A stretch of 64,000 nt of DNA from Escherichia phage vB_EcoM_DE17. The translations under genes were made by a program, and so were the position numbers. Below the pieces are notes generated by a model. The model made no database searches. It worked only from the letters and a program-made list of their open reading frames with translations, and had not been told where the DNA came from. The stretch lies in sequence record OP595146.1; one strand, given 5' to 3'. Of the stretch, positions 3,462 through 39,666 are shown one piece after another. How positions within the stretch are numbered: position 1 is the stretch's first letter; each line of letters begins with the position of its first letter.

Positions 3462-3638
3462 TTACTTATTAAACATTTTACCAGAACCACCACACATAGG
3501 ACAGCAACCTGCTCTTGTATAGCCTTCTCCATTACAGTAGTCACATTTTTTGTGTTCTGCAAAGTACTTACAAAGAAGATAAACAAGGACTGCTACACCA
3601 CCAAGTGACAGTAAAATTTCTACCCAATATGCTTGCAT
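3462..3638 (-). CDS. small membrane-anchored protein with two CxxCxGxG zinc-finger repeats
   Basis: 58-aa ORF not in supplied track, hand-translated: N-terminal hydrophobic helix then CDYCNGEG and CPMCGGSG (DnaJ-type motif). Confidence 0.4.
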   Translation of the reverse strand: MQAYWVEILLSLGGVAVLVYLLCKYFAEHKKCDYCNGEGYTRAGCCPMCGGSGKMFNK

Positions 3639-12334: not shown

Positions 12335-12541
12335 TTAAATCTTTTTAGAAAACTTCGAAACGAGTTTTCTTAGTTTTTCAGTGATACCTAGCTGTATCTC
12401 TAATATTTCAAAGATAACCCATAGTAACATGGCTCCAAACAATGAACCTTGTTCAAAATCAGTAAATAGGTTAACAACAAGCATACCAATCACAATGGCT
12501 GGTGCATCAACAACCAAGCCTTCCCAAAGGCGTTTAAGCAT
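12335..12541 (-). CDS. small membrane protein
   Basis: 68 aa, two hydrophobic segments. Confidence 0.4.
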   Translation of the reverse strand: MLKRLWEGLVVDAPAIVIGMLVVNLFTDFEQGSLFGAMLLWVIFEILEIQLGITEKLRKLVSKFSKKI

Positions 12542-32880: not shown

Positions 32881-33396
32881 ATGATTGATGTCTACTTACA
32901 AGATGCTCATGCAGATTTCCTTAAAGTGATGCTTAAAAAGTTTATGGCTTCACAGTGTGAGAATGAAGCATCTTTTAAAATAGTTACATGTGGCGATGAA
33001 GCTGGTTTTGTTGAGATTGAACATGAAGGTACTGGAAAGATTGTTTGTAAGTTACCTGATAGTATGTTCTCTAACACATTCTTAACAAAGACTAGTATAA
33101 ATGTTAAGCTTGTACCTCAGATTGAAACATACTCTGGTACAGATTACCCTAAAGGTTTTAAGTCACTGATGAAGTACTTCTTAGATGACTTTGTGAGTAA
33201 TCTTCTGAGAGAGGTAAAAGAAAGTCGTACAGTGTTGACTGTAGAGAACATGGGAGGAACTATCAGGGTTACTTCTGACTGTTTTGTTATGAGCCTCTTC
33301 GACTTCGTTCCTAAGAACTTTGATGGTATTCTGGATGAAGAAGATGACTGTGTAGATTTTATATTGGTTCTTGAACCAGTTTTTGAGGTTAAATAA
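32881..33396 (+). CDS. hypothetical protein
   Basis: 171-aa ORF. Confidence 0.5.
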   Translation: MIDVYLQDAHADFLKVMLKKFMASQCENEASFKIVTCGDEAGFVEIEHEGTGKIVCKLPDSMFSNTFLTKTSINVKLVPQIETYSGTDYPKGFKSLMKYFLDDFVSNLLREVKESRTVLTVENMGGTIRVTSDCFVMSLFDFVPKNFDGILDEEDDCVDFILVLEPVFEVK

Positions 33397-33657
33397 ATGA
33401 AAATTGAACACTGCTATGAGTCTGACGGAGCACCTATCCGTTGTCCACATTGTGGATGCACAGACTTACAAGGTGAGGTAAGTGAAATAGTCAACGGTCA
33501 TATTGCTGAAGAGAGTACAAGGTGTACAGGGTGTAGTGAAGTTATTGCTTTCTGGGCTTATGGTTCATACCAGCCTACGCCACACTTAATCTACCATAGC
33601 AATAAAGCTGTGAAGAATGTTATCAACTGGTTCATTAAGAAAGGGTTTACAAAATGA
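33397..33657 (+). CDS. zinc-ribbon protein
   Basis: CPHCGC ... CTGC Cys4 pattern. Confidence 0.5.
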   Translation: MKIEHCYESDGAPIRCPHCGCTDLQGEVSEIVNGHIAEESTRCTGCSEVIAFWAYGSYQPTPHLIYHSNKAVKNVINWFIKKGFTK

Positions 33658-34199
33658 TTAAATTAATCTTTGCAAGTGGTGAAAATGGTGAGTTTGGTAC
33701 TCCAACTGGTATGCCGTGGCCTCGACATAAACAGGACATGCAAGAGTTTAAGAGACTCACTAAAAACAACTTAGTAGTGATGGGTAATGAGACTTTCAAG
33801 ACTCTGGGGAGTAAACCTTTACCAGAACGTGCAAACCTAATCTTAACAAATTCTGTACCATACTTAGGCATAGACTTTGGCAAAGATGAGGTAATGTATG
33901 CTAAGGCCAGCAAAGAATCCTTTGGAGCATTTTTGAACTATCTTGATAGCTCTATTGATGAAGATGTCTTTGTAATTGGTGGTGCAGGTGTCCTTGTCAA
34001 TGCTTTACCATATGCTGGTGTAGTTTTCCATACAGTTTTCCATAAAGTTACTGAAGAGGCCACTGTGTATTTACCTTTTGAAAACTTTTTTGAGAAGTTG
34101 TATGATAACCGTGTATTTACAAAGGTACAGTCAAAACCATCAGAGGATGGTAAAGCAACCTTTGAAATTTATGTTCCACAAGTAAAAGGGCACTTTTGA
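33654..34199 (+). CDS. folA: dihydrofolate reductase
   Basis: N-terminal IFASGENGEFG...MPWP and overall DHFR pattern; immediately upstream of thymidylate synthase. Confidence 0.8.
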   Translation: MIKLIFASGENGEFGTPTGMPWPRHKQDMQEFKRLTKNNLVVMGNETFKTLGSKPLPERANLILTNSVPYLGIDFGKDEVMYAKASKESFGAFLNYLDSSIDEDVFVIGGAGVLVNALPYAGVVFHTVFHKVTEEATVYLPFENFFEKLYDNRVFTKVQSKPSEDGKATFEIYVPQVKGHF

Positions 34200-34200
34200 T

Positions 34201-35100
34201 ATGTCACAAGCAGATACAAGTTACAAAAATATCCTGAACCATGTTTTATCAGTTGGTGAACTGCGTACTACACGAACTGGAGATGTTATCTCTGCTTTTG
34301 CTCCACCTCAGTTTCGATTTGATATGCGAACTGGTTTCCCGCTCTTAACATCTAAACAGGTGTTTACACGGCAAGTTATCGGGGAAGCTTTATGGTTCCT
34401 GAATGGTGAGAATAAGCTGGGTGAACTCCGTTACCGCACTTGGGGTGAAAATGATGGGGAACGCTGGACTATCTGGTCAGATGATTTTAAACGCTGGTTA
34501 AGCTCTAATTATTCTTCTGAACAAGATTGGTTAGAGGATGCAGGTGGAAGAATCTATGGGGTGCAGTGGAGAAACTTTGAAGGTCATAACGGTTGTGTTG
34601 TAGACCAGTTAGAGACCTTAGTAACGAAGATGAAGGGTGATATCACAGACCGTTACATGCTTGTTAATGCTTGGAATGCAGCAGATATTGCAGCAAACTC
34701 AATGGCTTTAGCACCTTGTCATGTTCTGTTTCAGATTTATATCACTAATGAGGGTGAAGTTGACTTACAATGGTATCAGCGTTCAGTGGACACCTTCTTA
34801 GGACTTCCGTTTAATATTGCATCTTACGGTTTTATTCTGGAAGTTCTTTGTAAGATGACTGGATACACTCCACGGTACTTGATAGGTGTCTTTGGAGATA
34901 CTCAGATTTATCAGAACCATATGAAGCAGGTTTATGAACTGATGAACAATGAAGAGTTCCATGCACCAACTTTTGAGATTGGTATCCCACTTAACACTTT
35001 AAGTGACTTAAAACATCTTACAGCAAGTGATTTTATTGGTGGGATTAATAACTACCAACATGCAGGTAAGATTGAAGCACCTCTGTCAGTAGGCAAGTAA
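34201..35100 (+). CDS. thyA: thymidylate synthase
   Basis: ThyA signatures including catalytic-Cys region ALAPCHVLFQ; uninterrupted, no intron. Confidence 0.9.
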   Translation: MSQADTSYKNILNHVLSVGELRTTRTGDVISAFAPPQFRFDMRTGFPLLTSKQVFTRQVIGEALWFLNGENKLGELRYRTWGENDGERWTIWSDDFKRWLSSNYSSEQDWLEDAGGRIYGVQWRNFEGHNGCVVDQLETLVTKMKGDITDRYMLVNAWNAADIAANSMALAPCHVLFQIYITNEGEVDLQWYQRSVDTFLGLPFNIASYGFILEVLCKMTGYTPRYLIGVFGDTQIYQNHMKQVYELMNNEEFHAPTFEIGIPLNTLSDLKHLTASDFIGGINNYQHAGKIEAPLSVGK

Positions 35101-35109
35101 AACAAAAAA

Positions 35110-35129
35110 GGCTCCCGTAAAAAGGAGCC
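35110..35129. terminator. bidirectional intrinsic terminator at convergent gene junction
   Basis: GGCTCC-cgtaaaaa-GGAGCC flanked by an A-run on one side and a T-run on the other, so U-tracts on both strands; between thyA (+) and the membrane coiled-coil gene (-). Confidence 0.65.
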
Positions 35130-35136
35130 TTAAATT

Positions 35137-35508
35137 TTATTTTTCAGTATTCTTTGTGTTCTTTTCAGTAATAGCTTGCAAGGCTGATACTGATTGAGCC
35201 AGATTGTTCACACTGTCAGAGAATTTATCAAGAGTCTTAGTAAGTTTTGCATTCTCACCCTTAACATTCTCTAACTGAACTTTCTGGTTCTCCATCCCTA
35301 GCTGAATCAGTCTCATGTCAGACTGTAAATCACGAATAGCTGAGTAATTACTTTTGGAATAATTATCTAACTGCTGTAACTTTGTTGTGACAGAAACTTC
35401 TTGTTTACCACTTGAAACTTGCATGGTGGTATACATCCCAATAACACTAAAAATACCAACTACAATTGCACCAATATTATTTTTAAAAGCTTCCTCTAGC
35501 CACTTCAT
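35137..35508 (-). CDS. membrane-anchored coiled-coil protein (i-spanin-like architecture)
   Basis: N-terminal TM helix then about 90 aa of coiled-coil-like sequence. Confidence 0.5.
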   Translation of the reverse strand: MKWLEEAFKNNIGAIVVGIFSVIGMYTTMQVSSGKQEVSVTTKLQQLDNYSKSNYSAIRDLQSDMRLIQLGMENQKVQLENVKGENAKLTKTLDKFSDSVNNLAQSVSALQAITEKNTKNTEK

Positions 35509-35702
35509 TTATTCTCCCCCTTAAAAGCTTTTTCTAAGTTATCTACGAACTCATCATCAATAGGTGTGTCTGTTTTACTCGCAAGATATCTTGCAAGCTT
35601 AAAGAACACTTTCTCAATCATGTATTCACTTAGAAGGGATAAAATGAGTTTCCAGAAGAAGCTACCTAGATTTTTTAGAAGAATTGCTAGGATTGTAGGC
35701 AT
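35505..35702 (-). CDS. small membrane protein
   Basis: 65 aa with N-terminal hydrophobic helix. Confidence 0.45.
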   Translation of the reverse strand: MPTILAILLKNLGSFFWKLILSLLSEYMIEKVFFKLARYLASKTDTPIDDEFVDNLEKAFKGENK

Positions 35703-35781
35703 TTAATCACCTCATCAGCCAAGATGGTGAGAATACCCATAAAGAATATTAACACCATCTTAACAATCAGTCAACAAGTGA

Positions 35782-38139
35782 TTAAGCAGTTCTTACCCAA
35801 GCCATTAACTTGTAGAACTGGTTTGTAACACTAAATGCTGAACCAGAACCAGTACCACCTGTGTTACCGCTAACTGTGTGGCTGTGAGCACCAATACCAA
35901 CAGTGTGGCTGTGGTTACCTGTTGTATTCGTTACACCAGACCAAGTTCTTGACGCATTAAAGTTAGCAGGGATACCATAAGTGAAGTTAGAGCCAGTAAA
36001 ACCCTTAGAAGCAGTTGAGCTACCAAGTGTAAATGCACCACTTGCTGTGTAGAAGCTGCTAGAGTCACTTCTAAAGTAACCTACTGTACCAGTAATCTCC
36101 ATAGTACCTCTGTTATGGTTATGGTTACCAGTTGTGCTAGAAGTCTTAGTGCCATAATCAAATGATGAAGTGGTAGCAGAGAAGCTATGCGTGTGTGAAG
36201 GTAAGTTGCCAACAGATAACGTTACAGAGTCTGAACCACCAGTTGTAGCAACATCTGAGCCATTTGCTGCTGCAATTCGGATAGTTCTACCAACACCATT
36301 GTTCAGGTACGTCCAAGTTAGACCAGGAAGTGCTGTATTAGGGTTAACATTGCTGTTAAACCATGTCACAATACCCACTGGGTAGATTTTATTCAGGTCT
36401 GTAGAGTCACTTACTGCTTCTGCAATTCTCTGGTCAGTTTCAGCTTTAGTATATGCACCAATTTCTGAAGGGGTTGGTTTCTGAGCTTCAGTGTAAACCT
36501 TAGACCATTCAGCCTCAAAACCAGACCTATCTCTGGCTGTTCTATACCACATCCCACCATTTCTATAATCAAACCTTAATTGCGCAGTTGGTGTTGATGC
36601 TAACATATTAGCGAATAGGTGTAAGACTAAACGGCTTGAACCACCACCCTTGATAGTCTCTACATAAATTCCTGAAGGTTGGTTCCAAGCCACACCACCA
36701 TCAGACTCCTCCACCAAAGCTCTGGCTGATGACCATAAGTACTTTGCATCGGTTGCAGATTTAACGTAGTATCTAGCATCTAAGTTAGAGAAATCCGAAG
36801 GTTGAACTTGACCCGTGATTGCTAAAGTTGCATTCATTTCAAATACTGAACCAATGCTAAGCCCTTTACCTGTCTTGTAGTTAAACACATTTAAGATATC
36901 ACTGGCATCACCATTACCAATATACCACTTGCTGGTTCCATCAACAGCCTTTCCCCTAATGAATAAGGACGTTGCAGTTTTTGCTCGTAACGCGAGAGCT
37001 TCTCCATCAGAGTTGATAACCTGTTGTGCAGAGAATGTATTAGCAGCATTAGTTCTTGCAATCGTACTTAATGTTGCTGCCGGAATATATCTAGAGTCAA
37101 TATTAGCCCAATCTGAAGGTTGGACTTGTCCAGTGATTTGCACAGTCTTATTGATACCAATAGTAGTACCTAGTGAAATCTGTGAACCTGTAAGGTAGTT
37201 ATAAATGTTTAGACGTGTCTCGTCAGAATCTGTACCAACATACCATTTATTTGTTCCATCAGACTTCTTACCGAGAATGTAAAGTGCTGTACTTGCATCA
37301 GTATTCTGTAAAGTAATAGCATTAGCATTCTTCTTAGCAACAAGGTTAGTGAAAGTGTTAGCACCTGTAAAAGTATTATTGCCAGCTAACTGTGCAAATC
37401 TCTGATTAGCAACTGTCTGAGTAAAGTATCTGGCATCTAAGTTAGAGAAATCTGAAGGTTGAACTTGACCAGTGATTCTAAGTGACTTGTTAAATGCTGC
37501 TGTTGCATCAAGGGTTAACATTGCACCAGTAGCATGATTGTACAAATAAACATTAGTACTATTTGCATTTCCCTGTCCAACATACCAAGTTTGCTGGTTA
37601 TTAGCATCTCTACCTTGAATATATGAAGCACCTGCATTGGTTGCCTTCTTAAGAGTTAACTGCTCACCATCAGTTACAATTGCTTGCCTGATACTGAAGT
37701 TATTTGTAACAGCAATCCTTGCATATCTTGCATCATTCTCTTCATTAGTTCTCATACCAAGCTCATTAGGGCTTGGTTTATTCAAAGTATGATAAACAGT
37801 TGCCGACCTTGTGGCATCTGCAATAGTGAGTTTAAGCCCATTTGAGTTAATTTTAAAAGTCTTTAAAATATCCCCAATAGTAATCTCAGAAGAGCCTGTT
37901 GGGTCAAATACTGCCTTACCACCGTAAAGTAACTTGACAATACCTAAATCCCCAACCATAGTACTCCCAGCAATCTGAACAAACCTTTCTAGTTTGAAGG
38001 AAGCTAAGAAGTCTTGATAGGTCATTCTACGGTCTTCGTCACCCAACATTTCAGGTCTTTTCTTAACTCTGATGTGCAATAGGTCTTCTGAACGAATTGT
38101 GTCGATTGAGTTTAATTGACTCAATTTGTAATCTGCCAT
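35782..38139 (-). CDS. tail fibre protein with His-x-His-rich C-terminal tip
   Basis: 785 aa; three internal repeats each ending ITGQVQPSD(F/W)xN(L/I)D(A/S)RY; C-terminus with HTHS, NHNHN, GNHSHTVGIGAHSHTV. Confidence 0.8.
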   Translation of the reverse strand: MADYKLSQLNSIDTIRSEDLLHIRVKKRPEMLGDEDRRMTYQDFLASFKLERFVQIAGSTMVGDLGIVKLLYGGKAVFDPTGSSEITIGDILKTFKINSNGLKLTIADATRSATVYHTLNKPSPNELGMRTNEENDARYARIAVTNNFSIRQAIVTDGEQLTLKKATNAGASYIQGRDANNQQTWYVGQGNANSTNVYLYNHATGAMLTLDATAAFNKSLRITGQVQPSDFSNLDARYFTQTVANQRFAQLAGNNTFTGANTFTNLVAKKNANAITLQNTDASTALYILGKKSDGTNKWYVGTDSDETRLNIYNYLTGSQISLGTTIGINKTVQITGQVQPSDWANIDSRYIPAATLSTIARTNAANTFSAQQVINSDGEALALRAKTATSLFIRGKAVDGTSKWYIGNGDASDILNVFNYKTGKGLSIGSVFEMNATLAITGQVQPSDFSNLDARYYVKSATDAKYLWSSARALVEESDGGVAWNQPSGIYVETIKGGGSSRLVLHLFANMLASTPTAQLRFDYRNGGMWYRTARDRSGFEAEWSKVYTEAQKPTPSEIGAYTKAETDQRIAEAVSDSTDLNKIYPVGIVTWFNSNVNPNTALPGLTWTYLNNGVGRTIRIAAANGSDVATTGGSDSVTLSVGNLPSHTHSFSATTSSFDYGTKTSSTTGNHNHNRGTMEITGTVGYFRSDSSSFYTASGAFTLGSSTASKGFTGSNFTYGIPANFNASRTWSGVTNTTGNHSHTVGIGAHSHTVSGNTGGTGSGSAFSVTNQFYKLMAWVRTA
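36771..37490 (-). repeat. three tandem about-340-bp repeat units inside the long tail-fibre gene
   Basis: Near-identical DNA segments at about 36771, 37091 and 37431 (tct.gcatctaagttagagaaatc.gaaggttgaacttgacc.gtgatt), each encoding ITGQVQPSDxxNxDxRY. Confidence 0.6.
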
Positions 38140-38159
38140 TATAAATTTTCCTCTTAAAA

Positions 38160-38175
38160 GGGGCTACAAAGCCCC
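38160..38175 (-). terminator. hairpin between the two tail-fibre genes
   Basis: GGGGC-tttgta-GCCCC followed on minus strand by TTTTAAGAGG then the RBS of the downstream fibre gene. Confidence 0.45.
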
Positions 38176-38185
38176 TGTAAAGAAA

Positions 38186-39361
38186 TTAAGCTGTTCTCTG
38201 CCACACATATACTACAAAAGATGGCTGCTCAACACTGAAAGCTTGACCACCACCAACAGAACCAGATGTCCCTGAGTGTGTATGCTCAGAGCTAGAAACA
38301 GTAACAGTGCCCGTATGACTGTGTGAACCAATATTGACAGTGTGGCTGTGAGCACCAATTGCAACAGTATGACTATGAGCACCAGATGATGCAGTTGTAC
38401 CTGAGAAGCTATGGGTGTGAGCACCAGCTAAGTCAGTATATGAAGCATTACCAACCCCAGCATCAGCAGATGCGGTAATAGCATTTGACCCACTTCTATC
38501 ATTACCCCTCAGAGGTACTCTATGGTTGTGGTTACCAGCATTACTTGTCGTTCCACTAAATGTGTGGGTGTGAGCACCAGCACTGTTAGTTGCCTTCGTA
38601 CCGTAGTCAAAAGTTGATGTACTCTTTGAACCATAATCAAAACTAGAGATAGATACACTTGCAGAGTGTGTATGACCACCCCCTGTTAGATAGATAGAGT
38701 GAGTATGTGCTGGTAAATTGTTATTTGTCAATACTACAGTCTGAGAACCAAAAGTTGAACCAACAGGTCTAGAATCTGTATCATAACCAACCAGTGCTCT
38801 ACCTTTAGAAACTAACTCCCAAGTACCTCCACAAAGCAAGTAAGTGGATGGGTTGGCAGAGTTAACAGATAGGTGAATAGTCCCTACTGGATATGATGCT
38901 TGAATAGCTTTGTATAAATTATTCACTGCTCTCGCGGTAGCGTACTTATCAGCATCTTCATTGTACAGATTAGATGTTGTCCAGTTCTGAACATTACTTA
39001 AACCTACCTGTGCTTTCGTTGTATTGTGTGGGTTACTTTTGTCGTCAATATGTTGCTGAATTGAGTTATTCACTTCTTCTGACGACATAATTTGTAGATT
39101 TGCTCTTGCCTCAGCAACATTCACAATGTCTGACAAGTTATTGGCTGCAACTAATTGGAGAGAGTTAATAACATTATCAAGACCCACTTGTGATTTAGTT
39201 ACACCATGAGGATTATTCCTCAGAGATGCGTGAGGTGCTAACAACTGTTCAAGCGTACATCTTTTATCCTCAACACCTTGCTTAAGGTGGAAGATATCAC
39301 TTAAATCAACTGGTAAGGCCGCTTGTGGCAAGGCACTAATTTGAATTTCACCTACTGCCAT
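38186..39361 (-). CDS. tail fibre protein 2 with His-x-His-rich C-terminal tip
   Basis: 391 aa; repeated AHTHS/GAHSHTV/GSHSHTG motifs; C-terminal ~20 aa resemble those of 35782..38139. Confidence 0.8.
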   Translation of the reverse strand: MAVGEIQISALPQAALPVDLSDIFHLKQGVEDKRCTLEQLLAPHASLRNNPHGVTKSQVGLDNVINSLQLVAANNLSDIVNVAEARANLQIMSSEEVNNSIQQHIDDKSNPHNTTKAQVGLSNVQNWTTSNLYNEDADKYATARAVNNLYKAIQASYPVGTIHLSVNSANPSTYLLCGGTWELVSKGRALVGYDTDSRPVGSTFGSQTVVLTNNNLPAHTHSIYLTGGGHTHSASVSISSFDYGSKSTSTFDYGTKATNSAGAHTHTFSGTTSNAGNHNHRVPLRGNDRSGSNAITASADAGVGNASYTDLAGAHTHSFSGTTASSGAHSHTVAIGAHSHTVNIGSHSHTGTVTVSSSEHTHSGTSGSVGGGQAFSVEQPSFVVYVWQRTA

Positions 39362-39363
39362 TA

Positions 39364-39666
39364 TTAAGCTCCTACATATTCATATGTGTAAAGGTTTCCT
39401 GTACTTGTTGATGCAGTCCCTGTCTCAGATTTAATCAGATTCCAGCCATTAGCCACTAAATCTGGTTGCTCAGTTGCATATGAGCGAACTTCACCAACAG
39501 TGCCGTTTACTTTATTAAGCAGGTAGTTGATAATATAGTTGAACCACTGCCTACCCATAGGTTCACCCTTTAAAAGACCTGTCTCTTGAACTTCCGGTGG
39601 TGGTAAAACTTTTAACTGGTTACCATCAGTATCTACTTCATTTGTAGACCAATTTAAAACTGCCAT
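39364..39666 (-). CDS. hypothetical tail-associated protein
   Basis: 100 aa between baseplate and fibre genes. Confidence 0.45.

What the first reader, a model, noticed from the sequence alone, without database searches (positions are those of the whole stretch)
35137..35702. Two small membrane proteins after the tail fibres, one with spanin-like architecture
ORF 35137..35508 has an N-terminal TM helix followed by a coiled-coil periplasmic-type domain, the architecture of inner-membrane spanins; ORF 35505..35702 is a 65-aa membrane protein. No endolysin is recognisable nearby, so a lysis role is only a hypothesis. The pair ends at a bidirectional terminator.
Basis: inference. Interest (0 to 1): 0.35.

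Follow-up and report, generated by a model that had tools for sequence, protein, structure and literature searches.

The report
Small lysis gene pair, Felix O1-like phage
Two small genes after the tail fibres of a Felix O1-like phage are real and most likely help burst the host cell: one is related to a proven lysis protein of marine phage PM2, the other is this phage group's untested holin candidate, not a spanin.

Summary
The window is a Felixounavirus genome, collinear with Salmonella phage Meda. Both ORFs exist on the minus strand. They have strong ribosome-binding sites, a 4-base ATGA overlap and a bidirectional terminator, and both are under purifying selection.

**123-aa ORF.** It is not the phage's i-spanin. 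No conserved lipoprotein ORF is embedded or adjacent, and relatives carry a canonical overlapped i-/o-spanin pair about 46 kb away. Many GenBank records call it "putative holin", with no experiment behind the label.

**65-aa ORF (new here).** It belongs to PHROG 402 / Pfam PF26925 "Phage_PM2_Gpl". This is the family of corticovirus PM2 gp l (P18), an accessory lysis factor that helps breach the outer membrane. Family members sit directly after endolysins of at least three enzyme types. In other phages they sit next to single-helix holins: T in RB49-like phages and gp k in PM2. The SUSP1 ortholog is a fitness gene with a small-plaque knockdown phenotype in a published CRISPRi-ART screen. That screen's authors left it unannotated and called Ounavirinae lysis "a mystery".

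**Verdict.** This is a PM2-style lysis module. The holin role of the 123-aa protein stays unproven, and its own knockdown was negative.

The parts
35505..35702 (-). 65-aa ORF (Felix O1 gene 78 equivalent; SUSP1 agp027 ortholog, 91% identical). Member of the PM2 gp l / P18 family (PHROG 402, Pfam PF26925 'Phage_PM2_Gpl').
   Evidence: phrog_402 E 1.5e-22. PM2 gp l itself hits phrog_402 at E 8.2e-14. hhalign of the family profile against PM2 gp l: 92% probability, E 5.7e-7. All 77 relatives found carry PF26925. AlphaFold model with three helices, 2-23, 26-43 and 47-64, mean pLDDT 80.
35553..35573 (-). Codons 44-50 of the 65-aa ORF: family signature T-x-T-x-x-D-D (T44, T46, D49, D50), followed by an acidic C-terminal helix.
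   Evidence: T46, D49 and D50 (with F33) are invariant and T44 is >=90% conserved across 36 diverse family members. All four are invariant in the 9-sequence alignment.
35634..35699 (-). Codons 2-23 of the 65-aa ORF: hydrophobic/amphipathic helix 1 (contains K10 and K18). Probable membrane-binding segment.
   Evidence: Kyte-Doolittle 1.56 over residues 3-21. Hydrophobicity varies across the family, from 2.17 to below 1.5. Helix 2-23 in the model.
35137..35508 (-). 123-aa ORF (Felix O1 gene 79 equivalent; SUSP1 agp028). Bitopic membrane protein, PHROG 4038, annotated 'putative holin' in many GenBank records.
   Evidence: phrog_4038 E 1.7e-71. 'holin' labels. The family is restricted to Ounavirinae: 6 hits among 1.84 billion representatives. 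25% identical orthologs in the same position in Erwinia, Hafnia and Yersinia phages.
35422..35478 (-). Codons 11-29 of the 123-aa ORF: single transmembrane helix (NIGAIVVGIFSVIGMYTTM).
   Evidence: Kyte-Doolittle 1.62 over 19 residues and 2.25 over 15 residues.
35143..35403 (-). Codons 36-122 of the 123-aa ORF: one continuous helix with about 11 uninterrupted heptads (coiled coil). No Cys, no Pro.
   Evidence: AlphaFold helix 36-122, pLDDT up to 93. Hydrophobic a/d positions 68% against 44% in shuffles, z 5.1; the same holds in four divergent orthologs.
35708..35713 (-). Shine-Dalgarno GAGGTG of the 65-aa ORF.
   Evidence: Read from the sequence.
35514..35520 (-). Shine-Dalgarno GGGGGAG of the 123-aa ORF, inside the end of the 65-aa ORF. 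With the ATGA overlap this suggests translational coupling.
   Evidence: Read from the sequence.
35746..35774 (-). Sigma-70-like promoter TTGACT-17-TAATAT (with TG) in the 79-nt gap between the tail-fibre stop and the 65-aa start. Function not shown.
   Evidence: Consensus scan. Both hexamers are conserved in Felixounavirus and Suspvirus.
35721..35761 (-). 9-bp perfect inverted repeat AAGATGGTG ... CACCATCTT (arms 35753-35761 and 35721-35729) enclosing the -10 element. Meaning unknown.
   Evidence: Read from the aligned intergenic regions; conserved in SUSP1.
35108..35131 (.). Bidirectional intrinsic terminator closing the pair and the convergent thyA gene.
   Evidence: Annotated as terminators t79/t80 in Felix O1 and in Meda.

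Best explanation
The two ORFs are the last, probably translationally coupled, genes of the late morphogenesis operon of a Felix O1-like myophage. Together they form a small lysis module of the PM2 type.

The 65-aa product is a member of the PM2 gp l (P18) family. It is a three-helix protein with a hydrophobic/amphipathic helix, an invariant T-x-T-x-x-D-D motif and an acidic tail. It is an accessory lysis factor acting on the cell envelope. In PM2 the homolog is needed to break the outer membrane after the inner membrane is permeabilised.

The 123-aa product is anchored in the inner membrane by one helix and carries a ~130 Angstrom oligomerising coiled coil. It is the lineage's best holin candidate. 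It occupies the place that experimentally known single-helix holins occupy beside gp l-like genes in other phages: T in RB49/Phi1-like phages and gp k (P17) in PM2.

Shown: family membership of the 65-aa ORF, the gene contexts, the architecture, and the knockdown phenotype of the SUSP1 ortholog.

Inferred: that the 123-aa protein forms the lethal membrane lesion, that the two proteins act together, and the topology of both.
For: 1. Homology. The 65-aa ORF hits phrog_402 at 1.5e-22. PM2 gp l hits phrog_402 at 8.2e-14. hhalign gives 92% probability and E 5.7e-7. Relatives carry Pfam PF26925 'Phage_PM2_Gpl'.

2. PM2 function. P17 (gp k) punctures the cytoplasmic membrane and P18 (gp l) helps disintegrate the outer membrane (review PMC6356626 citing Krupovic 2007). 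In PM2, k and l are adjacent and overlapping, the last genes after the spike gene.

3. Endolysin adjacency. gp l-like genes lie 0-63 nt downstream of, or overlap, endolysin genes of different enzyme families:
- GH108 + PG_binding_3.
- Phage_lysozyme, in three unrelated contexts plus an 1112-aa fusion protein.
- Amidase_3.
These endolysins have no signal sequence. No lipoprotein ORF is found nearby on the same strand.

4. Holin adjacency. In Krischvirus the order is gp37 fibre, then gp l-like, then holin T (Phage_holin_T 4.5e-61). This mirrors fibre, then 65 aa, then 123 aa in every Ounavirinae genus examined.

5. Shared build with PM2 gp k. The 123-aa protein has the same layout: short N-terminus, one transmembrane helix, heptad C-terminal domain.

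6. Experiment in a relative (CRISPRi-ART, SUSP1). agp027 (91% identical to the 65-aa ORF) is 'Fit', with score 2.27, KS p 0.0007 and 6 guides. A single guide lowers EOP about 3-fold and shrinks plaques roughly 10-fold. No other Fit or Semi-Fit unknown-function gene that I checked (agp089; Meda counterparts of agp010, 024, 054, 130) has a hydrophobic segment.

7. Late-operon position, with its own terminator or promoter-like insulation.
Against: - Knockdown of the 123-aa ortholog agp028 was 'Not Fit' (0.20, p 0.60; only 3 guides). The screen also missed the endolysin, the spanins and the tail fibres, and the authors concede false negatives.
- The agp027 phenotype could be polar on agp028, or could reflect a non-lysis role.
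- The 123-aa family shows no sequence similarity to holin T (BLASTP E 62) or to PM2 gp k (hhalign probability 0.75%).
- Felix O1-like phages and Krischvirus already have spanins, so an outer-membrane role for the gp l-like protein would be redundant there.
- In SU10/7-11-like podophages the gp l-like gene sits among structural genes with no lysis gene beside it.
- Other small membrane proteins exist in the genome, e.g. window 12335..12541, a 68-aa two-helix protein.
- Felix O1 RT-PCR put ORF 79 at 5 min and ORF 78 at 25 min. That dataset is noisy, since it also puts the capsid gene at 5 min.
Confidence: 0.55

Rival explanations
1. The 65-aa gp l-like protein is itself the membrane-permeabilising lysis trigger (the functional holin) of Felix O1-like phages. 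The 123-aa protein is its regulator or partner (antiholin, timing or scaffolding factor) rather than the holin.
For: - Only the 65-aa ortholog scores as a fitness gene; the 123-aa ortholog does not.
- In at least five endolysin-adjacent contexts the gp l-like gene is the only hydrophobic small gene next to a signal-less endolysin.
- Knockdown sensitivity fits a stoichiometric membrane protein. The T5 holin was Fit and the T4 holin Semi-Fit in the same study.
Against: - In PM2, gp k rather than gp l permeabilises the cytoplasmic membrane.
- Several family members fall below transmembrane hydrophobicity thresholds. From memory, Krupovic 2007 describes PM2 gp l as having no transmembrane domain.
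- Krischvirus already has holin T next to it.
- Vibrio phage 1.039.O has a separate holin-like gene (phrog_689, E 1e-4).
Confidence: 0.2
2. One reading: the 123-aa protein is an inner-membrane spanin (Rz-like) that bridges the periplasm to an outer-membrane partner and fuses the membranes at the last step of lysis.
For: - The architecture matches: N-terminal transmembrane helix plus a long coiled coil.
- Weak PHROG hits to Rz-like spanins (E 0.009 and 0.036).
Against: - No conserved embedded, overlapping or adjacent lipoprotein ORF.
- The terminator follows directly after the stop codon.
- Relatives have a canonical overlapped i-/o-spanin pair elsewhere.
- Unlike that i-spanin, the 123-aa protein has one unbroken heptad register and no Cys or Pro.
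- The PHROG hits are at noise level for a coiled coil.
Confidence: 0.05
3. The pair is a moron-like membrane cassette unrelated to lysis, for example superinfection exclusion or blocking of DNA injection. Such genes often sit next to receptor-binding genes.
For: - Its own sigma-70-like promoter and terminator.
- Position right after the receptor-binding fibres.
- Felix O1 ORF 79 transcript peaks early.
- agp028 is dispensable in the screen.
Against: - The 65-aa family includes a lysis protein characterised by experiment, and it travels with endolysins and holins.
- An exclusion gene should not be a fitness gene in single infections.
- Both proteins are 90-100% conserved while the neighbouring fibres vary.
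Confidence: 0.1
4. One or both proteins serve tail-fibre or virion assembly, or are minor virion components.
For: gp l-like genes lie inside structural modules in Ounavirinae, Krischvirus, SU10/7-11-like podophages and PM2.
Against: - Neither gp78 nor gp79 was among the Felix O1 virion proteins found by mass spectrometry.
- The family also lies in non-structural operons directly after endolysins.
- There is no similarity to known fibre chaperones.
Confidence: 0.07

Closest known systems
Corticovirus PM2 lysis pair gp k (P17, holin) + gp l (P18, outer-membrane disruption factor); Pfam PF26925 Phage_PM2_Gpl / PHROG 402
   Same: - The 65-aa ORF is a sequence homolog of gp l.
- In both phages the gp l-type gene is adjacent to, and overlaps, a gene for a small protein with one N-terminal transmembrane helix and a heptad C-terminal segment.
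- In both, the pair closes the late operon after the receptor-binding gene.
   Different: - Gene order is reversed: k then l in PM2, l-like then 123 aa here.
- The 123-aa protein is more than twice the length of gp k and shows no detectable similarity to it.
- The 65-aa protein has about 10 extra hydrophobic N-terminal residues.
- PM2 lacks spanins and is thought to rely on host lytic factors for peptidoglycan digestion. Felix O1-like phages have both an endolysin and spanins.
T4-type class III holin T (Pfam PF11031) in its g37 - (g38) - t position
   Same: - A single N-terminal transmembrane helix with a large C-terminal domain.
- The gene lies directly after the distal tail-fibre genes, far from the endolysin.
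- In Krischvirus a gp l-like gene separates g37 and t, exactly as the 65-aa ORF separates the fibre gene and the 123-aa ORF.
   Different: - No sequence similarity (no Pfam hit).
- T is 218 aa with a globular periplasmic domain, whereas this protein is 123 aa with a single rod-like coiled coil.
Two-component spanins (lambda Rz/Rz1 type); the lineage's own pair is Meda_126/125 = SUSP1 agp086/087
   Same: An inner-membrane anchor plus a coiled-coil domain in the 123-aa protein. The outer-membrane step of lysis is what PM2 gp l is reported to serve.
   Different: - No lipoprotein partner.
- A different heptad pattern and no Cys.
- The genuine spanin pair is elsewhere in the genome.
GenBank 'holin / putative holin' annotation of Felix O1 gp79 homologs
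   Same: It is the same protein, 89-100% identical in about 250 records.
   Different: The label rests on 'small protein with a transmembrane helix' only. The one functional test available was negative.

Membership tests
PM2 gp l / P18 family (Pfam PF26925, PHROG 402), for the 65-aa ORF | Significant profile match over the full length | tested here: met
   phrog_402 E 1.5e-22, residues 5-63. Proteins 97-98% identical carry precomputed PF26925. PF26925 is not in the local Pfam copy, so the direct scan gave no hit.
PM2 gp l / P18 family (Pfam PF26925, PHROG 402), for the 65-aa ORF | Homology to the eponymous PM2 gp l itself | tested here: met
   PM2 gp l hits phrog_402 at E 8.2e-14. hhalign of profile A1 against gp l: 92% probability, E 5.7e-7, 38% identity over 42 columns.
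PM2 gp l / P18 family (Pfam PF26925, PHROG 402), for the 65-aa ORF | Conserved motif F33...T44-x-T46-x-x-D49-D50 and an acidic C-terminal helix | tested here: met
   F33, T46, D49 and D50 are invariant and T44 is >=90% conserved in 36 members. All of these are invariant in the 9-member alignment.
PM2 gp l / P18 family (Pfam PF26925, PHROG 402), for the 65-aa ORF | Required for the outer-membrane step of lysis | not testable with these tools
   Indirect evidence only: small plaques on knockdown of SUSP1 agp027, and endolysin or holin adjacency.
i-spanin (Rz-like), for the 123-aa ORF | N-terminal transmembrane anchor with a periplasmic coiled-coil domain | tested here: inconclusive
   The transmembrane helix and coiled coil are present. 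Which side of the membrane the coiled coil faces cannot be decided, because the flanking charges are balanced.
i-spanin (Rz-like), for the 123-aa ORF | Cognate o-spanin lipoprotein gene embedded, overlapping or adjacent | tested here: not met
   The only lipobox-like embedded ORF has a TTG start, no SD and variable length. It is absent in Seyj1-1, phiEa21-4 and Zyzzx. The terminator follows the stop codon.
i-spanin (Rz-like), for the 123-aa ORF | Profile similarity to known spanin families | tested here: not met
   phrog_739 E 0.009 and phrog_214 E 0.036, partial coiled-coil stretches only. No similarity to the lineage's own i-spanin.
Holins (functional class), for the 123-aa ORF | Small phage protein with at least one transmembrane helix, encoded in a late transcription unit | tested here: met
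   One transmembrane helix. It is the last gene of the 41-79 late unit of Felix O1. The RT-PCR timing data are contradictory.
Holins (functional class), for the 123-aa ORF | Sequence membership in a described holin family (T/PF11031, PM2 gp k/phrog_32586, others) | tested here: not met
   No Pfam, NCBIfam or PHROG holin hit better than E 0.06. BLASTP against Phi1 T gives E 62. hhalign against gp k gives 0.75% probability.
Holins (functional class), for the 123-aa ORF | Forms a lethal, timed inner-membrane lesion that releases endolysin; null mutant does not lyse | not testable with these tools
   The only data are the SUSP1 agp028 knockdown, 'Not Fit' with 3 guides in a screen with acknowledged false negatives.

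The most novel reading that the evidence does not exclude
This two-gene unit is the missing lysis trigger of Felix O1-like phages. It would be a PM2-type system, with a single-helix coiled-coil holin plus a P18-like envelope-disrupting peptide, shared between a membrane-containing corticovirus and at least three groups of tailed phages. In that reading the gp l-like peptide is a widespread, so far unrecognised class of lysis effector that can occupy the 'spanin slot' directly after endolysin genes.
Probability: 0.35. Interest if true: 0.6.

Novelty: new member of a known kind. Interest (0 to 1): 0.45.

Why it matters
Felix O1 is a classic diagnostic and biocontrol phage, yet its holin has never been identified. 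A 2025 genome-wide knockdown study of its relative SUSP1 stated that lysis in this subfamily 'remains a mystery'. The same study listed agp027 as an unexplained fitness gene.

Linking agp027 and this 65-aa ORF to the PM2 gp l/P18 lysis family gives that gene a testable function. It also points to the adjacent 123-aa gene as the partner to test.

More broadly, the gp l family sits directly after endolysins of several enzyme types with no spanin nearby. That suggests a third, under-appreciated solution to the outer-membrane step of lysis, alongside spanins and disruptin-type peptides.

Tried and rejected
- **Embedded o-spanin.** ORF 35367..35459(-) 'MVFLVLLGC...' looked like a lipoprotein. It has a TTG start, no SD and variable length, and it is absent in relatives. 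Rejected.
- **Homology of the 123-aa protein to holin T or PM2 gp k.** None found.
- **DivIC/FtsB mimic.** The Pfam DivIC hit (E 6e-4, 20 bits against a cut-off of 28.9) aligns coiled coil to coiled coil and is out of register with the transmembrane helix. Rejected as compositional.
- **NCBIfam.** Only coiled-coil noise.
- **Exhaustive HMMER search of 1.84 billion representatives with the 123-aa protein.** 6 hits: Ounavirinae relatives or fragments, plus one long coiled-coil protein. No deeper family emerged.
- **The search for related loci.** A single Vibrio homolog returned one locus. I switched to the look-up of encoding contigs.
- **Foldseek of the 65-aa model against BFVD.** Only uncharacterised family members.
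- **DUF5675 neighbour.** In one marine context the upstream neighbour is a DUF5675 protein. It has no PDB relative and only an unknown-function PHROG, so I do not count it as an endolysin.
- **Literature searches.** 'PF26925' and 'PM2 gp l' found nothing usable beyond the review PMC6356626. The primary PM2 paper (Krupovic 2007) is not in the library. Details beyond the review are from memory.
- **Other possible holins in the lineage.** Meda_015 (two transmembrane helices) has no homolog in this window. Homologs of Meda_002 and Meda_018 are present, but they lie in early/nucleotide-metabolism operons and their presumed SUSP1 counterparts are not on the Fit or Semi-Fit list.
Full report
**Identity of the window.**
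- Megablast of 33000..39500 finds 249 phage records, almost all Felixounavirus and close relatives, at 90-97% identity.
- The window is collinear with Salmonella phage Meda. Window coordinates are about Meda coordinates plus 28 around this locus.
- Local gene order: DHFR (+), thymidylate synthase (+, ends 35100), a terminator, then on the minus strand the 123-aa ORF, the 65-aa ORF and two gp37-like tail-fibre genes.

**The observation.**
- Both ORFs are real. They sit on the minus strand, with the 65-aa ORF (35505..35702) upstream of the 123-aa ORF (35137..35508). The two overlap by ATGA, and each has a strong Shine-Dalgarno sequence.
- The hairpin at 35108..35131 scores as an intrinsic terminator on both strands. 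It corresponds to terminators t79/t80 of Felix O1.
- The ORFs match PHROG 4038 (E 1.7e-71) and PHROG 402 (E 1.5e-22). They occur in 260 and 398 phage records.
- Against SUSP1 they show 52:11 and 21:6 synonymous to non-synonymous codon changes. They are genes under purifying selection.
- The pair keeps the same place in every Ounavirinae genus examined: after the fibre or adhesin genes and before the convergent thyA. This holds for Felixounavirus, Suspvirus, Kolesnikvirus phiEa21-4, Hafnia phage Zyzzx and Yersinia phage P778, even where the 123-aa protein is only about 25% identical.

**Anatomy of the 123-aa protein.**
- Residues 11-29 form one moderately hydrophobic helix (Kyte-Doolittle 1.62).
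- AlphaFold gives helix 2-31, a low-confidence linker, and one continuous helix 36-122 with pLDDT up to 93.
- One heptad register runs through the whole C-terminal domain in five divergent orthologs (a/d hydrophobic 65-76%, z 4.6-6.0).
The side of the membrane on which the rod lies is not determined, because the flanking charges are balanced.
- The family is tiny. An exhaustive HMMER scan of 1.84 billion representatives returned six hits: Ounavirinae relatives or fragments, plus one long coiled-coil protein.

**Is it a spanin?**
- An i-spanin needs an outer-membrane lipoprotein partner encoded inside, overlapping or next to it.
- The only candidate is a TTG-initiated ORF at 35367..35459 reading MVFLVLLGC.... 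It lacks a ribosome-binding site and varies from 30 to 48 aa between close relatives. It is absent from a same-genus phage and from phiEa21-4 and Zyzzx.
- The terminator follows the stop codon directly.
- Meda and SUSP1 carry a textbook overlapped i-spanin/o-spanin pair near rIIB (Meda 81153..81663; SUSP1 agp086/087). It has a lipobox (MSGC) and periplasmic cysteines.
- That region and the endolysin (Meda 66230..66694) lie beyond the end of this 64-kb window. tblastn finds no copy inside it.
- PHROG hits of the 123-aa protein to Rz-like families are at E 0.009-0.036 and cover only coiled coil.
- The spanin reading fails a defining test.

**The 'holin' label.**
- Many GenBank records call this protein holin or putative holin.
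- The basis is architecture only. The Felix O1 genome paper lists gp79 as one of five candidates. The BASEL annotators describe the same heuristic. The Meda announcement says a holin was not identified.
- There is no similarity to holin T, to PM2 gp k, or to any holin profile.

**The 65-aa protein is the informative one.**
- Its relatives carry Pfam PF26925. The context tool names this family Phage_PM2_Gpl. The model is absent from the local Pfam copy.
- PM2 gp l itself matches PHROG 402 at 8.2e-14.
- A profile of nine family members aligns to gp l with 92% probability, E 5.7e-7.
- Across 36 members F33, T46, D49 and D50 are invariant and T44 is at least 90% conserved.
- The AlphaFold model is three helices with mean pLDDT 80.
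- In PM2, P17 (gp k) punctures the cytoplasmic membrane and P18 (gp l) helps disintegrate the outer membrane (PMC6356626, citing Krupovic et al. 2007).
- In PM2, k and l overlap and are the last late genes after the spike gene.
- gp k is 53 aa: a short N-terminus, one transmembrane helix and a heptad tail. That is the 123-aa protein's architecture in miniature.

**Gene contexts of the gp l family.**
- *Directly after endolysin genes, with gaps from -4 to +63 nt:*
  - GH108 + PG_binding_3 in Vibrio phage 1.039.O.
  - Phage_lysozyme in a Shewanella prophage, in marine P22-like contigs and in a topoisomerase-bearing phage.
  - An 1112-aa lysozyme fusion protein.
  - Amidase_3.
  - These endolysins lack signal sequences. 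No lipoprotein ORF lies within 3-4 kb on the same strand. The gp l-like gene therefore sits where spanin genes usually sit.
- *Between the distal fibre gene and a single-helix holin or holin candidate:*
  - Krischvirus has g37, then gp l-like, then t (Phage_holin_T 4.5e-61).
  - All Ounavirinae examined have the equivalent arrangement.
- *Inside structural modules:* in SU10/7-11-like podophages.
- Vibrio phage 1.039.O also has a separate holin-like gene (phrog_689, E 1e-4) far from its endolysin/gp l pair. The family is therefore an accessory factor rather than always the holin.

**Experimental data from a relative (CRISPRi-ART, SUSP1, NC_028808).**
- agp027 is PHROG 402 and 91% identical to the 65-aa ORF. 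It is 'Fit', with score 2.27, KS p 0.0007 and six guides. A single guide lowers EOP about 3-fold and shrinks plaques roughly 10-fold.
- agp028, the 123-aa ortholog (92% identical), is 'Not Fit' (0.20, p 0.60, three guides).
- The authors note that no annotated lysis gene scored, that Felix O1 'lacks an identifiable holin', and that Ounavirinae lysis 'remains a mystery'. They list agp027 as having completely hypothetical function.
- Among the Fit or Semi-Fit unknown-function genes that I checked, agp027 is the only one with a hydrophobic segment.
- Caveats: the ATGA overlap means a block on agp027 translation may also lower agp028. The screen also missed the endolysin, the spanins and the fibres.

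**Interpretation.**
- The best-supported reading is a PM2-style lysis module at the end of the late operon. It combines a gp l/P18-family envelope-active factor (membership essentially certain, mechanism inferred) with a bitopic coiled-coil protein that is the most plausible holin (position and architecture support it; sequence and the one knockdown do not).
- I put about 0.55 on this overall.
- About 0.2 goes to the variant in which the 65-aa protein is the real trigger and the 123-aa protein is its regulator.
- About 0.05 goes to the spanin reading.

**Regulatory details.**
- The 79-nt gap upstream of the pair holds a conserved TTGACT-17-TAATAT element, embraced by a 9-bp inverted repeat.
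- In phiEa21-4, Zyzzx and P778 the same gap holds a terminator-like hairpin instead.
- This suggests the pair is expressed at a level set apart from the fibre genes.
- Felix O1 RT-PCR timings for ORFs 78 and 79 disagree with each other, and the dataset looks noisy.

**Novelty.**
- The 123-aa gene is already labelled putative holin. The 65-aa gene already falls in a Pfam family.
- The connection between the Ounavirinae fitness gene agp027, PM2 gp l, endolysin and holin adjacency, and the 'missing holin' problem appears in none of the GenBank records or papers that I checked.
- Rating: new member of a known kind, moderate interest.

Noticed in passing
window 35721..35761 (-): A perfect 9-bp inverted repeat (AAGATGGTG / CACCATCTT) brackets the -10 hexamer of the promoter-like element upstream of the 65-aa ORF. 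It is conserved in SUSP1. In other Ounavirinae genera the same gap instead holds a terminator-like hairpin. It could be an operator or an RNA structure controlling the pair.
   Followed up: partly
window 12335..12541 (-): A 68-aa ORF with two hydrophobic helices and a charged C-terminus (class II holin-like shape), lying between nrdD and glutaredoxin. It is the homolog of Meda_018 ('possible membrane protein') and an alternative holin candidate in an early/nucleotide-metabolism operon.
   Followed up: partly
window 3462..3638 (-): A 58-aa ORF with one N-terminal transmembrane helix followed by a CxxCxGxG...CCPMCGGSG zinc-ribbon-like tail. It is the homolog of Meda_002, which lies next to rIIA in Meda. 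It is probably one of the Felix O1 paper's holin candidates.
   Followed up: no
L005 32864..33413 (-) = Meda 82864..83412 (outside the window): Meda_130 is annotated hypothetical. It has a signal peptide and what looks by eye like a lytic-transglycosylase motif (ALQESELG...GIFQ). This was not checked against any profile. If real, it is a possible second, secreted murein hydrolase close to the spanin genes.
   Followed up: no
L036 1587..1748 = SUSP1 agp089: A 53-aa acidic protein with no hydrophobic segment, two genes downstream of the spanin pair. It is a complemented fitness gene in the CRISPRi-ART screen. Function unknown.
   Followed up: partly
L031 25580..26313 (-) (= L007 3477..4210, +), Vibrio phage 1.039.O: The GH108 endolysin + gp l-like pair sits at the end of the early recombination operon (erf, ssb). 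A holin-like gene (phrog_689) lies with other transmembrane-helix genes at the far end of the record, on the opposite strand. The lysis genes are split, as in Felix O1.
   Followed up: partly
window 35782..38139 and 38186..39361 (-): Both tail-fibre proteins end in long runs of H-x-H / HSHTV repeats, like the metal-binding needle of T4 gp37, with Gp10_C-like domains. The distal fibre varies between otherwise near-identical phages, while the two small genes downstream stay 90-100% conserved.
   Followed up: no
L008 4210..4545, phiEa21-4 gp74: The Erwinia ortholog of the 123-aa protein has a lipobox-like IVGC inside its transmembrane helix. It is not conserved in other orthologs and is probably chance.
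   Followed up: partly
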